A stretch of 64,000 bases of DNA from the human T2T-CHM13v2.0 reference genome, Homo sapiens. The position numbers were made by a program, and so were the translations under genes. The stretch lies in assembly GCF_009914755.1 (NCBI RefSeq), contig NC_060937.1; one strand, written 5' to 3'. Position 1 is the first letter of the stretch, and each line of letters starts with the position of its first letter. The notes under the pieces are model-generated. The model was given only the letters and a program-made list of their open reading frames with translations, made no database searches and had not been told where the DNA came from. This document shows, piece by piece, positions 33,875-64,000 of this stretch.

Positions 33875-34020
33875 AGAGGAGTCCTAGGCTTCTCTGTTCA
33901 TTCGACAGGGAGGCTGGGTCAGAGTCCTGGGCTTCCCTGTTTATTAAATATGGAGGCTGGGTCAGAGTCCTGGGCTTCCCTGTTTATTAAATATAGAGGC
34001 TGGGTCAGAGTCCTAGGCTT
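33875..34020. repeat. 43-bp minisatellite (~3 copies) in the ERV leader
   Basis: aggctgggtcagagtcct starts at 33911, 33954 and 33997. Confidence 0.85.
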
Positions 34021-34838
34021 CATTGCTTGCAAAGTACCATTAGTTAAGAGTATGGGAGCTTCTCAGTCACTGAAACCCCCCTTCTCAAGCCCTTGATGGC
34101 TGTATGCTCCACCACTAGGGCCACTAGGGCATGCACTCACTCTGTCCACTTCCTTCCTTATGGCATAATTTTACTAAGGATAATTTGGAACTTTGATGGC
34201 TTCCCCAAACGGGCACCTTTAAGACCTCCCCCCTTCCTATCCCCTCTGCTCCTCTTTCCTCCTTTCACCACCTTTGATCTTCCCTTCAGTTCCTTTGAAT
34301 CCTTTAATATGTTGTCTTTGAAACCCCTACTTCTCCACCATCCACCTGTCCACTTCTGCCAGAACTTTCCCTTCCCACTCAAGCCTCCCACCTCCCTACA
34401 ATCACCGGAATCTTAGGCCTCCTACCCACATCAGGAGCTCTCAAAGGACCCCCAAAAGCAATCAGATATATGAGCAAATGAAAATCTTACAAGTCTCCTC
34501 CATAAATATTGGTGGAAAGCATTAGCCCTCGTAGTGAGCAGGTAACCTTACCTTATTCTATCTGTCAGAAACACTTAGGAAGCAGGGCAAAGATGAGAGC
34601 CAAGTATTTTATACAAACCTGTGAAATTTATTTTACTCTTTTTACCTGACATGTAGCTACAATATTCGAATGAAAGCTACAAGGTCTCTATTTGCATCTG
34701 TATGTAACTTTATATACGTATGCATGTATGTTATGTGTGTATGGTATTTTTCTACCTCTGCATGGGATTGCCAAGTTAACTTATAAAATCCCTTTAAGGA
34801 TTTCTATTCACATTGGCTTAGAGATAAATCAGAACTTA

Positions 34839-57620: not shown

Positions 57621-57679
57621 CCAGAATATCATTTTTTGATCTAGCATTGCATTTGTGACTATCAAGGTGCCCATGGGTT

Positions 57680-58134
57680 TGTCTCCATGGGCGCCGCCCT
57701 CTTCCTAGGAGAGTAGGTGGGGAGTTTCTGTGCCCCCTCCCCCACCACGGGAAACTTGCCCTCTTGCACACGTGGTGCGGAAGGCGCCATTTTGGCCCAG
57801 TTGGTGCTGAGTAAGATGTTCTCGCTTCTCTGCTCAGGGCATGAAGATCTGGGGCAGGTGCAGGACTTGGGGCCCCAGAGAGTGCCACAATCGACTGCCC
57901 GTGGGAGTGGGCTGGTGCCTGGGAGCAAGAGCGCGGCCGTCCGGCGCCTGTGTGAGCCGACAGGGCAGCTCCGCCAGGGAACCAGGGGCCCGTCCCTCTG
58001 GGGTCATGGGCGGACAGGCACGGGAGCTGAGAGAGGGGACCGGGCCTAGGCCACAGGCCCTCCAAGGAAGCCACAGAGCCAGCTAGTGGCACCCAGGGAC
58101 TGCGGGAAGCTTCGGCAAGGTAAGCTCTGGCAGG
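57680..58134 (+). ncRNA. Promoter/first exon of an antisense transcript (probably lncRNA SACS-AS1)
   Basis: Local CpG enrichment; CACGTG (57769), CGGAAG (57778) and YY1 CGCCATTTT (57785) motifs; plus-strand donors AAG|GTAAGC (58120) and AGG|GTAAGC (58135). The lncRNA identity is from memory of the locus and was not verified. Confidence 0.5.
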
Positions 58135-58689: not shown

Positions 58690-60855
58690 CACTGAGGACT
58701 GGTGTGTACCCCTAGGGACGCAGTATCCACCTGGAGACTGGGTGTCCCCATGGAACCTGATGTCACTCTGGGCCTAGCTGCCCACATGGGTCCTTGGTGT
58801 CCACCTGGAGCCTGATGTTCCCCAGGGACCTAGGTATCCATTTGGGTCCTGATGTTCATCTGGGACCTGGTGTTCACCTAGGGCCCGATAGTCACCTGGG
58901 GACTGGGTATGTACCTGGGGCCTCATGTCCACCTGTGGTGTGGGTATCCACGTTGGGCCTGTGTGTCAATCTGGTGCCCCATGTCCACCTATGGATTAGA
59001 TACCCAACTGGGGCCTGCTCTTCATCTTGGACTTGGTGTTTACCTGGAACCTGATGTCCAGATGGGGCATAGATTATCTATGTGGGGACTGGTGTCTAGA
59101 TGGGGTCTGACAGTCAACTGGGGCCTGGCCTGGTATTTTCCTGAGGTGTGACTGTGAACCTGGGGACTAAAGTCTACCTAGAATCCAGTGTCTACCTTGG
59201 GCCTAATGTCCACCGGTGGCCCAATGTAAATCTGGGCACTAAAGTCTACCTAGAATCCAGTGTCTACCTTGGGCCTAATGTCCACCTGTGGCCCAATGTA
59301 AATCTGGGGACTAAAGTCTACCTAGAATCCAGTGTGTACCTTGGGCCTAATGTCCACCTGTGGCCCAATGTAAATCTGGGGCCTGGTATTTAGCTAGGGC
59401 CTGGGTATTCACCCAGGGCTTGATTTCAGCTGGGCCCTGAAGTTCTCCTAGTGCCTAGTGTCCACCTGAGGCCTTGGTGTCAGTCGGGAACTGGATGTCC
59501 ACCTGGGGCTTGAGTGTTTCCCGGTGCCTGAGGACTTCCTGGGCCTGGATGTTCACATGGGACCTAGATTGAACCTGAGGCCTGATGTTCATCAGGAGCC
59601 CAGGTATCCAGCTGGGGAGTGGTGTCCACCCAAGACATTTGGAGTCAAGTGTCCACTTGAGGCCTCATGTCCACCTGGGGCCGGATTGTCCATCAGGGAC
59701 CTGTTTTTGACCAGGGACCTGGGTATTTACCTGGGGCCTCAGTGCCCACTTGGGGCCTGACATCCACTTGGGTGTTGGTGTCCACCAGGAGCCTAATGTC
59801 CACCAGAGTCCTGGGTATCCTCCTGGCACCTGGTGTCTGCCTGGGGCCTGGTGTCCACCTAAAGTGTGGGTATCCACCTAGGACCTGGTGTGCACCTAGG
59901 GCCTTTGTCCACCTTGGGCCTGTTGTTCCTCTGGGGCCTTGTGTCCGCCTGGGCCCTGGGTGTGAGCGTGGTACCTGATATCCACCTGTGGCTTCCATAG
60001 CCACCTGAGGCCTGGTGGTCATTTGAAACCTGGTGTTCTCCAGGGGCCTGATGTCAACCTGAGGTGTAGATATCCACCTGGGTCCTGGATGTCCAGCTGG
60101 GGCCAGATGTCCAGCTCTGGTCTAGGTATACCCCTGGGGCTTGATATTCACCAGGGGTTTAGGCATTTACTTGGCACCTAGTTTCCCTGTGGAGTGTGCC
60201 GTCCCATGAGGATTGACATTCAGCTGGGGACTGGGTATCTACCAGGGACCTGGGTATCCACCTCAAGCCTATTGTACTCCTGGAACCTGAGTATTTACCT
60301 GGGGTCTGATATGCACCCAGGCCTGTTGCCTACATAGTGTCTTATGTTCCCCTTGAGCCTGAACGTCCGTCTGAGTCCTCGGTATCCTCTGTGGGATGGC
60401 TGTCCACCTGTGACATTGTGTCCTGCTGTGGCACGGATGTGAGCCTGGTGCCTGATATACATCTTAAGTCCAGTGTCCACCTGGGGCCTGATGTTGACCT
60501 GGGGACTGATGTCCACATGGGAACTGGGCATCCACCTGCGGCCTGATGTCCACTGGGAACTGGATGTTGCCCTGGGGTCAGGGTATCTGCCTGGAGCGTG
60601 GTGTTCACCAGGGGCCTAGGCATCCACCTGGGGCCTGTAGTCTACCTGGGGCTTCCTGTCCACTGTGGCCCTGGTATTTACCTGGGGCCTGGACATCCAC
60701 TTGAGGCCTGAAGTTTAAGTGGGGCCTGGTGTTCAACGGGGGCCCATGTGTCAACTTGGGAACAGACATGCACCGAGATGCCTGATATCCATCTGGGGCC
60801 TGGTTTCCACCTGGGGCCTAGTATTTACCTACGGCCTGGGCGTCCACCTATGGTG
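58690..60855. repeat. Degenerate GC-rich 18/19-bp tandem repeat, consensus ~CCACCTGGGGCCTG(A/G)TGT
   Basis: On the order of 100 diverged units over ~2.2 kb; the motif tccacctggggcctg recurs throughout. Confidence 0.9.
59154..59381. repeat. 72-bp VNTR (~3 near-identical copies; 4 x 18-bp)
   Basis: ctaaagtctacctagaatcc starts at 59167, 59239 and 59311. Confidence 0.95.
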
Positions 60856-61480
60856 TATTATCTAAGTATCTAAGTAACAACGTTTGAGAGGTTATTAGGC
60901 CTATATATGAACATGCTACTAACTAGAAAAAAGTTATGTGCAAAGGAGCTTTGTGATGTACCTTATTATATTGTTGAATGGAACGTAACTTTTCATTAAA
61001 CAAGTTCCTAACACATTTTATAGAATCTAACAAATGAGATTTCAGAGGCCTATATATAAACATGAAAATTCAGCCCAATAACTAAAAACAAGCCATGTGA
61101 GAAGAAGCTTTGTGATGTGCTTTATTATATCACTGAATGTAACCTGTGTTTTTATTAAAGAAGTTCCAAACACACATTTTATCGTTTTATACAACCTAAG
61201 GAATGACATTTCAGAGGCTGTTAGGCCCACATGTGAATATACAAATATTCATCCTTAATAACTAAAAACAATCTGTGCATGAAGAAGCTTTGTTATGTGG
61301 TATTTCAGATCACTGAATGAATGGAACCTGTGTTTTTATTAAACAAGTTCCAAACACACGTTTTATAAAACCTAAGGAATGACATTCCAGAGGCTATTAG
61401 GTCTTATGTGAATATTTGAATATCCATCTCTAATAACTAAAACAGTCTGTGTGCAAAGATGCTTTGTGATGTGGTGTTTC

Positions 61481-61597
61481 TTTTTTTTTTTTTGAGACGG
61501 AGTCTCACTCTGTCGCCCAGGCTGGAGTGCAGTGGCACGATCTCGGCTCACTGCAAGCTCTGCCTCCTGGGTTCACGCCATTCTCCTGCCTCAGCCT
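61481..61597 (-). mobile_element. 5'-truncated AluY inside the satellite
   Basis: Right-arm 3' part only; TSD tggtgtttc. Confidence 0.9.
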
Positions 61598-62987
61598 TTG
61601 GTGTTTCATATAACTGAAAGAAACCTGTGTTTCTGTTAAACACATACTAGAAACATGTTTTGTAGAATCTAACCAATGACATTTCAGACATTGTTAGGCC
61701 TATATATGAACATATGAATATCCAGACCTATTAACTGGAAAAAAGCTATGTGCGAAGAACATTTGTGATGTGCTTTATTATATCACTGAATGAAATGTGA
61801 GTTTCCATTAAACAAGTTGTAAAAACACGTTTTGTAGAACCTATTTAATGAGATTTCAGAGGCAATCAGGCCTATATATAAACATATGAAAATCCAGCCT
61901 TAATAACTAAAAACAAGCTATGTGAGCAGAAGCTTTGTGATTTGCTGTTTTATATCAATGAATGGAACCTGTGTTTTTATTAAACAACTTCCAAGCAGAC
62001 GTTCTTTAGAACCCAGGGAATGACATTTCAGAGGCTATTAGGTCTATATATGAATATACGAATATCCATCCCTAATAACTAGAAACAATCTGTGAAGAAG
62101 CTTTGTGATGTGCTGTCTCACATCACTGAATGGAACCTGTGTTTTTATTAAACTAGTTCCAAACACACATTTTTTAGAACCTAAGGAATGACATTCCATA
62201 GGCTATTAGGCCTATGTATGAATATACAACTATCTATCACTAATAACAAAAAACAATCTATGTGCGAAGAAGCTTTAGGATGCACTGTTTTATATCACTG
62301 AATGGAACAAGCATTTCTGTTAAACAAGTTCCAAAAGGACGTATTGTAGAATCTAAGTAATGACATTGCAGAGATTATTAGGCCTCTATATGAACCTACT
62401 AATATCCAGCCCTAATAACTAGAAACAGCTATGTGCAAAGAACATTTGTGATGTGCTTTATTATATCGCTGAATGGGACGTGAGTTTTCATTAAACAAGT
62501 TCCAAACACACATTTTGTGGAATCTAATTAATGAGATTTCAGAAGCTATTAGGCCTATATATAAACTATTAGGCCTATATATAAAAATACGGAGCCTTAA
62601 TAACTAAAAGCAAGCTATGTGTGAAGAAGCTTTGAGCTTTGGGATGTACTATTTCATATGAATGAGAAGAACCAGTGTTTTTGTTAAACAAGTTACAAGC
62701 ACTCATTTTTTAGAACCTAAGCAATGACATTTCAGAGGATATTATCCTATATATGAATATACGAGTATCCATCCCTAATAACTAAAAACAGCTTTGTGAT
62801 GTGCTGTTTTATATCACTGAATGGAACCTGTGTTTTTATGAAACAAGTTTCAAACATGTTTTGTAGAATCTACAAAAATGACATTTCAGAGGTTATTGGG
62901 TTTATATATGAATATACACATATCCACTACTAATAACTAGAAACAAGCTATGTGTGAAGAAGCTTTCTGATGTGCTTTATTATATCA

Positions 62988-63357
<370 letters not shown>

Positions 63358-63827
63358 GGAATGAGATTTCAGAGACTATTGTACCTACATAGATTTTCAG
63401 CCCTAATAATGAAAAACAAGCTATGTGAGGAGAAACTTTCTGATGTGCTGTTTTATATAAATGAATGGAACCTGTGTTTCCATGAAGCAAGTTCCAAACA
63501 CATGTTTTGTAGAATCTCAGATATGACATTTCAGGGGCTATCAGGCCTATATATCAACATATGAACGTCCAGTACTAATAACGAAAACCAAGCTATGTAC
63601 AAAGAAGCTTTGTGATGTGCTGTTTTAAATCACTGAATGGAACCTGAGTTTCCATTAAACAAGTCCAAACACAGGTTTTGTAGAATCTAAACAATTACAT
63701 TTCTGAGGTTATTAGGCCTATATATGAACATGTGACTATCCAGCTCAGTTAATTATCATGAAGATATGGGTGAAGGAGCTTTGGGATGTGCTTTATTATA
63801 TCACTGAATGGAACCTGTTGTTTCATT

Positions 63828-64000
63828 GTATCCATCGGGGGCCTGGGCGTGAGCCTGGTGCTTGGTGTACACCTCAAGTCGAGTGTCTACCTGGGGCCTG
63901 ATGTCCATCTGGACACTGGTGTCCACTTGGGGCCTGACGTCCACCTCGAGCTGGATGGTCCTCTGGGGTCAGGGTGTCCACCTGGGGCCTCCTGTTCACC
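63828..64000. repeat. Second block of the 18-bp GC-rich repeat (runs off the window)
   Basis: tccacctggggcct units resume immediately after a truncated alphoid monomer. Confidence 0.9.

What the first reader, a model, noticed from the sequence alone, without database searches (positions are those of the whole stretch)
60950..62640. Four-monomer higher-order repeat (ABCD-ABCD-A, ~685 bp) in the relic array
Seen: monomers cycle through four types. A has tttattata, ttt(t/c)cattaaa and aatgagattt (60953, 61765, 62448). B has aacc..gg-aatgac, catcc and aacaatct (61112, 61937). C has t(t/c)tca(g/c)atcac and cattcca (61292, 62105). D has tttctgttaaa, aga(c/g)att and gaacattt (61466, 62277). The period is 683 bp (61765 to 62448) and 685 bp (60953 to 61765 after removing the 127-bp Alu+TSD). 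Known: HORs are typical of active centromere cores, while old layers are mostly monomeric or dimeric. Inference: a decayed HOR in such a diverged family would point to early HOR formation, or simply to one local 4-mer duplication.
Basis: seen in the sequence. Interest (0 to 1): 0.7.

Follow-up and report, generated by a model that had tools for sequence, protein, structure and literature searches.

The report
Old centromere-type repeat, locally quadrupled unit
A 3-kb patch of very old centromere-type repeat DNA in an intron of the human SACS gene, already catalogued in print, repeats in blocks of four units almost three times, likely through old local copying rather than as a leftover centromere core, so it is mostly ordinary.

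Summary
The four-monomer period is real: units are 685 and 683 bp; identity at lag 4 is 84-85% against 76-79% at other lags (permutation p about 0.001, stable to monomer phase). It runs from 60865 to about 62960, roughly 2.9 units. But only three types resolve (A, B=C, D): B and C are as alike as the copies (quartet sites 3:2:2). The order is ABBD-ABBD-AB?-A-x-x. The array itself is published: alpha-satellite cluster sat_360-366 in SACS (PMC7719264), with no higher-order repeat claimed. The A/B/D types are private to this locus: none of 493 monomers from eight related arrays and two short pieces carries the A or D signature and one nears B; none of 29 pieces from 15 short inserts carries any of the three. 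Similar local periods occur in 2 of 8 related arrays. No CENP-B or pJalpha box. Best reading: two or three old tandem re-copyings of a 684-bp piece of an ancient, mostly monomeric alpha family, then neutral decay. A relic of a real pre-ape higher-order repeat is not excluded (about 15%).

The parts
60865..63826 (+). Diverged alpha-satellite array: 14 full monomers plus a partial one at each end, 33% GC, interrupted by two Alus; equals published cluster sat_360-366
   Evidence: identity with the published cluster from spacing arithmetic
60865..60948 (+). Partial first monomer M0, D-like second half
   Evidence: 81% to the second halves of M4 and M8, 67-78% to the other six compared
60949..61760 (+). 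Unit 1: A (60949) B (61108) B'/C (61288) D (61462); 685 bp without the Alu
61481..61607 (-). 5'-truncated Alu (AluYjk in PMC7719264) plus one copy of its 9-bp target site; present in D1, absent from D2
61761..62443 (+). Unit 2: A (61761) B (61933) B'/C (62101) D (62273); 683 bp; 84.0% to unit 1
62444..62962 (+). Partial unit 3: A (62444, with a perfect 20-bp duplication at 62546-62585), B-like M10 (62637, D-like first half), near-consensus M11 (62792); 85.5% to unit 2
62963..63435 (+). Fourth A-type monomer M12, out of the four-step register
   Evidence: 6 of 7 A sites; A group 97/95
63062..63372 (+). Full-length Alu (AluSp in PMC7719264) plus one target-site copy (15 of 17 bases match), inserted in M12
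63436..63826 (+). Untyped monomers M13, M14 and partial M15; no period
58700..60860 (.). GC-rich satellite with an 18-19-bp unit, left flank (family name not tested)
63830..64000 (.). Same 18-bp satellite, right flank, running on to about L009:370; 63824-64244 repeats 60414-60847 at 70%
57679..57955 (+). GC-rich head of the composite block, holding the SACS-AS1 start (57789); second copy 6.7 kb downstream just beyond the window (L009:388-669, 77%)
   Evidence: hub annotation

Best explanation
This is a stranded 3-kb piece of a very old alpha-satellite family in which a 684-bp block of four monomers (A-B-B-D) is present in almost three tandem copies, likely made by two or three old local re-copying events and likely without function today. 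Shown: the period, its extent, three types, two Alu insertions, no CENP-B or pJalpha box, and no A/B/D types in the related loci examined. Inferred: the source family was mostly monomeric; one monomer was duplicated (B to BB); soon after, the four-monomer block was copied about twice by unequal exchange between monomers four apart or by rolling-circle copying of a small circle; deletions and patchy conversion blurred the ends (A-like start of M2, D-like start of M10, a D missing before M12); Alus inserted later; all copies then decayed. The block, with its GC-rich flanking satellite, sits in SACS intron 1; PMC7719264 dates its arrival there to the ape ancestor.
For: Lag-4 excess. Unit-to-unit distances are similar (K2P 0.18, 0.16, 0.21) and lower than shifted controls (0.23-0.29; three controls that self-aligned at 100% were set aside), as for copies made close in time. 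Type stems are short (about 0.03) and tips long (0.06-0.18), so the types are lightly diverged monomers caught by a copy event, not deep classes. Types are private: of 493 monomers from 8 arrays and 2 short pieces, none reaches 70% of the A or D sites and 1 reaches 6 of 8 B sites; 29 pieces from 15 short inserts match 15/156 A, 61/170 B (two of the 8 B sites are the family's common base) and 17/127 D sites; 71 monomers of the nearest array reach at most 2/7 A, 4/6 derived B, 3/6 D. The closest insert (L022) is 89% identical to the array's majority sequence and untyped. Local periods of equal strength occur elsewhere: 5 of 288 contiguous nine-monomer windows, in 2 of 8 arrays, have an excess of 6 points or more; this array scores 6.0-6.3 in the same alignment. 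No whole-unit paralog above about 82% in genome searches. Low-copy HORs in old layers are described as small-scale amplifications (PMC4496801 passages).
Against: The excess is in the top 2% of background windows, so it is not everyday noise. Nearly three units plus a fourth A need several events. The nearest array (C3:128.38-128.40 Mb) has its own Y-1-2 three-step pattern over about half its length, hinting that multimers were common in this family. Genome searches score only about 40 candidate regions per call, and only the human genome was available, so a lost or non-human parent array cannot be excluded. The copying mechanism and all dates are inferred.
Confidence: 0.7

Rival explanations
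1. The block is the last fragment of a once long four-monomer higher-order repeat array of a pre-ape centromere, excised and inserted here.
For: Copy-to-copy divergence of 14.5-18% fits the over-10% divergence of divergent HORs (PMC9549924); near-equal distances among the three units; a three-step pattern in the sister array on C3; HORs and tetramers are reported in New World monkeys (PMC4431391 abstract; marmoset preprint passages).
Against: Under three units; the period fails in the last four monomers; no A/B/D monomer in any other locus examined, including short inserts that should sample an abundant array; 14 window monomers form one group, although with weak support (64/91).
Confidence: 0.15
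2. The array is an irregular mix of a few monomer classes (as R1/R2 in SF5), and the four-step order is partly chance.
For: B and C do not separate; D-D is only 79%; the order breaks at M12; the C3 array alternates classes irregularly (2Y/122Y12Y2Y12Y222Y12Y...).
Against: Shuffling the order of the same monomers rarely gives the lag-4 value (p 0.0006-0.003); the classes are found nowhere else; unit lengths agree within 2 bp.
Confidence: 0.1
3. One single tandem duplication of four monomers.
For: The clearest signal is unit 1 against unit 2 (84.0%).
Against: One event gives two copies of each type; there are four A monomers (97/95) and five B/C monomers (87/87), and unit 3 is as close to unit 2 (85.5%) as unit 1 is.
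Confidence: 0.03
4. No real period; hand-picked motifs in a star-like monomeric array.
Against: Permutation tests, phase scan, and signatures trained on M1-M9 that pick out M10 and M12.
Confidence: 0.02

Closest known systems
Euchromatic alpha-repeat cluster sat_360-366 in SACS (Feliciello et al. 2020, PMC7719264)
   Same: The same DNA: seven RepeatMasker ALR/Alpha pieces next to an AluYjk and an AluSp; anchoring sat_361's end on window 61471 puts all seven in 61046-63771 and the second Alu in the sat_364/365 gap (my arithmetic).
   Different: The paper gives no monomer type, reports only unsupported partial grouping in its tree, and says nothing of a four-monomer period or the flanking composite in the sections read (12, 13, 14, 16, term searches, supplement part 2; figures not seen).
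Low-copy HORs and re-amplified pieces in old layers (SF4, SF5, SF6; PMC4496801, PMC9549924)
   Same: A segment of non-HOR alpha satellite copied in tandem, giving a multimer with no centromere role.
   Different: Those are homogeneous or hundreds of copies long and pericentromeric; this has under three copies at about 84% in a gene intron, and seems to come from an older family.
Divergent HORs (dHORs; PMC9549924 sections 2.4.6 and 2.8)
   Same: Multimer period with intra-array divergence over 10%.
   Different: dHORs are SF1-3, 01/02 or SF5 remnants at the edges of large arrays; this is isolated, lacks both protein-binding boxes and has no parent array.
SF13-18 most ancient alpha satellite (Altemose et al. 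preprint 10.1101/2021.07.12.452052; classes listed in PMC11062924)
   Same: Small pieces of very old alpha satellite far from the centromere; 172-bp-type monomers without pJalpha or CENP-B sites.
   Different: Class assignment could not be run and Table S5, which lists the loci, was not visible; membership is a lead only.
New World monkey HORs and tetramers (PMC4431391; marmoset preprint 10.64898/2026.03.25.713844)
   Same: Multimers longer than dimers outside the great apes.

Membership tests
Alpha satellite | Head-to-tail AT-rich monomers of about 171-172 bp | tested here: met
   TRF period 171-172; undamaged monomers 168-174 bp; 33% GC
Alpha satellite | Homology to alpha satellite and annotation as ALR/Alpha | tested here: met
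   64-70% matches to long 171-bp arrays on C23, C16, C17, C7, C19; published ALR/Alpha coordinates fit the array
Homogeneous (live or inactive) HOR array | Many copies about 98% identical | tested here: not met
   About 2.9 units at 82-85.5%
Homogeneous (live or inactive) HOR array | CENP-B or pJalpha sites | tested here: not met
   0 matches on either strand at up to 4 mismatches (motifs)
Higher-order repeat in the structural sense | Identity at lag n above other lags | tested here: met
   84-85% against 76-79%, p about 0.001
Higher-order repeat in the structural sense | Each position of the unit is its own monomer type | tested here: inconclusive
   A 97/95, D 85/85, B and C unresolved (3:2:2 sites; AU p 0.38 and 0.33)
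Divergent HOR (dHOR) | Intra-array divergence over 10% | tested here: met
   14.5-18%
Divergent HOR (dHOR) | Remnant at the edge of, or related to, a larger HOR array | tested here: not met
   Flanked by another satellite and intron DNA; no locus with the same types; searches are lower bounds
Divergent HOR (dHOR) | Monomers of SF1-3, 01/02 or SF5 | not testable with these tools
   No HumAS-HMMER or PERCON; PMC7719264 Table 1 lists no monomer type for sat_360-366
SF13-18 ancient alpha satellite | Small piece far from the centromere | tested here: met
   3 kb at chr13:22.63 Mb in SACS intron 1 (hub annotation); centromere position recalled, not from a call
SF13-18 ancient alpha satellite | Monomer class Ia, La, Fa, Ea, Qa, Pa or Ta by family profile | not testable with these tools
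   Class names; profiles and Table S5 not available
SATR1/SATR2 (or SST1, gamma) for the flanking 18-bp satellite | Match to the Dfam/Repbase consensus | not testable with these tools
   No repeat library; the name SATR is recalled; papers read give no unit sequence

The most novel reading that the evidence does not exclude
The oldest alpha-satellite family left in the human genome, the one spreading in the simian ancestor, already built multimers longer than dimers: an A-B-B-D tetramer here and a Y-1-2 trimer on 3q are relics of real arrays, against the view that pre-ape centromeres had nothing longer than dimers and that no family older than SF6 occurs in HORs.
Probability: 0.15. Interest if true: 0.55.

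Novelty: new member of a known kind. Interest (0 to 1): 0.2.

Why it matters
As a local re-copying it matters little: one more low-copy multimer in dead alpha satellite, at a locus already catalogued. It is a small, clean example of how a higher-order unit can start from lightly diverged monomers, in a family that looks older than those where HORs were listed (PMC9549924: none older than SF6). If a long parent array turned up in another primate, it would move the origin of multimeric alpha satellite in the human line back before the apes; New World monkey HORs already soften that surprise.

Tried and rejected
Grouping by neighbourhood (M1-M4 as a clade) is rejected, AU p 1e-5. Continuation beyond the window: no monomer in the next 10 kb (L009). 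Shared types with paralogs: none. CENP-B and pJalpha boxes: none. A second copy of the satellite-alpha junction: no hit spans it (150 of 212 matches listed). The composite head on C22:20.03 Mb has the spacer and 18-bp satellite but no alpha monomers in the 8.5 kb fetched. Dating by comparing the AluSp with 32 other Alus (median 82%) gave no useful age. Literature on ancestral chromosome 13 centromeres (PMC1794570 passages) and SATR composites did not bear on this locus. A supplement search of PMC11168930 for SF13/17/18 found nothing in 4 files, 1 file unreadable. L010 and L025 gave no monomers; hits under 120 profile columns were dropped before the 493 count, under 140 before the 58-row tree, under 90 before the 71 count (of 78).

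Full report
Observation. The stretch 60865-63826 is a tandem array of 171-172-bp AT-rich monomers: 14 full monomers (M1-M14) and two partial ones. Two Alus interrupt it: a 127-bp fragment with a 9-bp target site in M4, and a full copy with a 17-bp target site (15 matches) in M12. In M1-M9, mean identity at lag 4 is 83.7-84.9% against 76-79% at lags 1, 2, 3 and 5. Shuffling the order gives p=0.0006-0.0014, or 0.002-0.003 allowing any lag from 2 to 5. The result holds at all 15 monomer phases tried. A sliding comparison shows the lag-4 excess from 60865 to about 62960, roughly 2.9 units, with dips at the first half of D and of M10, and none afterwards.

Types. Three types resolve, not four. A (M1, M5, M9, M12) has support 97/95; D (M4, M8) has 85/85 at only 79% identity; B and C fall together with M10 at 87/87. 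B-C identities of 84-87% equal B-B and C-C of 86%. Informative sites split 3 for B|C, 2 for neighbours and 2 for the cross pairing, against 10-12 to 0-2 for the contrasts among A, B/C and D. Separate B and C clades are not rejected (AU p 0.38, 0.33) but not shown. Signatures trained on M1-M9 pick out M10 as B (6 of 8) and M12 as A (6 of 7). The order is ABBD-ABBD-AB?-A-x-x.

What the array is. It is published. PMC7719264 (passages, sections 12, 13, 14 and 16, supplement part 2 of 2; figures not seen) lists seven ALR/Alpha pieces, sat_360-366, in a SACS intron beside an AluYjk and an AluSp. It gives them no monomer type and dates the insertion to the ape ancestor, 20-30 million years ago. Anchoring sat_361's end at window 61471 places all seven inside the array and the second Alu in the right gap (my arithmetic). 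None of the paper's four mentions of higher-order structure concerns SACS. Searches for SACS with alpha satellite returned only this paper and a conference volume that I did not open; six other searches listed nothing on this period. Table S5 of the Altemose preprint, which lists the SF13-18 loci, could not be seen and may cover the locus.

Relatives. Genome searches (about 40 candidate regions scored each, so lower bounds) found no whole-unit paralog. The best outside matches are short inserts at 76-82% and an array at C3:128.38-128.40 Mb at 70-76%. By chromosome, rough position and length, 16 of the 19 inserts that PMC7719264 dates to the simian ancestor (45-60 million years) appear among the hits; this match is by eye across assemblies, not a lift-over. 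The closest insert is 89% identical to the array's majority sequence, as close as the array's own monomers at 80-90%. So the family is likely that old and was likely mostly monomeric. There is no CENP-B or pJalpha box at up to four mismatches, as stated for the ancient pre-A families (PMC9549924 supplement part 1).

Are the types shared? No. Among 493 monomers from eight arrays and two inserts, none reaches 70% of the A or D sites and one reaches 6 of 8 B sites. Among 29 pieces from 15 inserts the match rates are 15/156, 61/170 and 17/127; two B sites are the family's common base. Among 71 monomers of the C3 array the maxima are 2/7, 4/6 and 3/6. In a 58-row tree the A and B groups hold window monomers only; the 14 window monomers form one group at weak support (64/91, bootstrap not fully settled) beside one insert and the C3 Y type.

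How unusual is the period? In 288 contiguous nine-monomer windows from the eight arrays, 9 had a best-lag excess of 5 points or more and 5 had 6 or more, in 2 of the 8 arrays; this array scores 6.0-6.3 in that alignment. It is in the upper tail but not alone. The C3 array has a Y-1-2 three-step pattern in one half and is monomeric in the other. That fits local multimer growth, and is also the best point for the bolder reading.

Mechanism. Shown: period, types, Alus, privacy of types among the loci examined. Inferred: type stems of about 0.03 and tips of 0.06-0.18 changes per site mean the block was copied when its monomers had diverged only a little from the family norm. B and C are as far apart as the unit copies, so the B duplication came shortly before the block copies. 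Unit distances of 0.18, 0.16 and 0.21 fit copies made close in time, by repeated unequal exchange or rolling-circle copying; the data do not choose between these. The Alu fragment in D1 but not D2 came later. One duplication is not enough for four A copies. Age is loose: a recalled neutral rate gives about 40-60 million years, while the roughly 10% excess divergence proposed for freshly dead arrays (PMC9549924 section 2.8) would bring it to about 20-30. No function is indicated.

Context. The array lies inside a composite: a 280-bp GC-rich head at 57679-57955 that holds the SACS-AS1 start, a spacer, an 18-bp-unit satellite, the alpha array, more 18-bp satellite, and a second head 6.7 kb on at 77% identity. 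The head, spacer and satellite recur on C22 at 20.03 Mb at 75%, and the 18-bp satellite also lies beside the C3 array. This suggests a satellite-rich block moved as one piece.

Comparison. But low-copy HORs in old layers are described as small-scale amplifications (PMC4496801 passages), HORs occur in owl monkey and marmoset (PMC4431391 abstract), and the marmoset assembly shows some tetramers and an X-chromosome HOR (preprint passages). This array has a higher-order period in the structural sense, but fails the tests for a homogeneous HOR and for a divergent HOR tied to a parent array.

Verdict. Observation partly confirmed. A known ectopic alpha-satellite cluster with an apparently unreported, locally made four-monomer period. 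Local re-copying 0.70, relic HOR 0.15, irregular classes 0.10, others 0.05. Interest 0.2.

Noticed in passing
L024 and L039 (G000:C3:128382001-128397000, minus strand): The nearest related array has a three-step Y-1-2 monomer pattern in one half (2Y/122Y12Y2Y12Y222Y12Y/2/Y1/Y1/2Y12Y12) and is monomeric in the other; Y differs from the rest by about 33% and groups with the SACS monomers. An 18-bp satellite lies about 10 kb away at 128.406 Mb. Possibly the two-class family SF18; untested.
   Followed up: partly
window 57679-57955 and L009:388-669: A 280-bp GC-rich direct repeat (77%) brackets the whole 7-kb satellite block; the annotated SACS-AS1 start (57789) lies in the left copy, so the antisense RNA likely starts from a repeat-borne promoter.
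   Followed up: partly
L025 (G000:C22:20032737-20033766, minus strand); also C5:178.34, C5:176.59, C22:25.155, C4:123.28 Mb: The head and spacer (whole on C22:20.03 Mb, in part at the others) recur, on C22 between stretches of the same 18-bp satellite: a dispersed composite repeat family.
   Followed up: partly
window 59153-59381: A young 72-bp unit (four 18-bp units) in 3.2 copies at 96% inside the old GC-rich satellite: a much more recent local multimer.
   Followed up: no
window 60414-60847 and 63824-64244: The 430 bp of GC-rich satellite before the alpha array is repeated after it at 70% identity, as if the alpha array sat between two copies of one larger unit.
   Followed up: no
L021 (G000:C19:30241001-30251000): A diverged alpha array carries a recent segment of about 4.63 kb in at least three near-identical tandem copies: a young large multimer in an old layer.
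   Followed up: no
L023 and L026 (G000:C6:57.217 and 61.451 Mb): The same short ancient alpha insert lies on both sides of the chromosome 6 centromere region at about 98% identity, in line with the duplication described in the Altemose preprint passage.
   Followed up: no
L033 and L034 (G000:C23:19.684 Mb and C10:73.811 Mb): Two short inserts on different chromosomes share many private changes (98/91; with L031 100/99), suggesting a distinct ancient sub-family.
   Followed up: no
window 33879-34021: 43-bp minisatellite, 3.3 copies, 91%.
   Followed up: no
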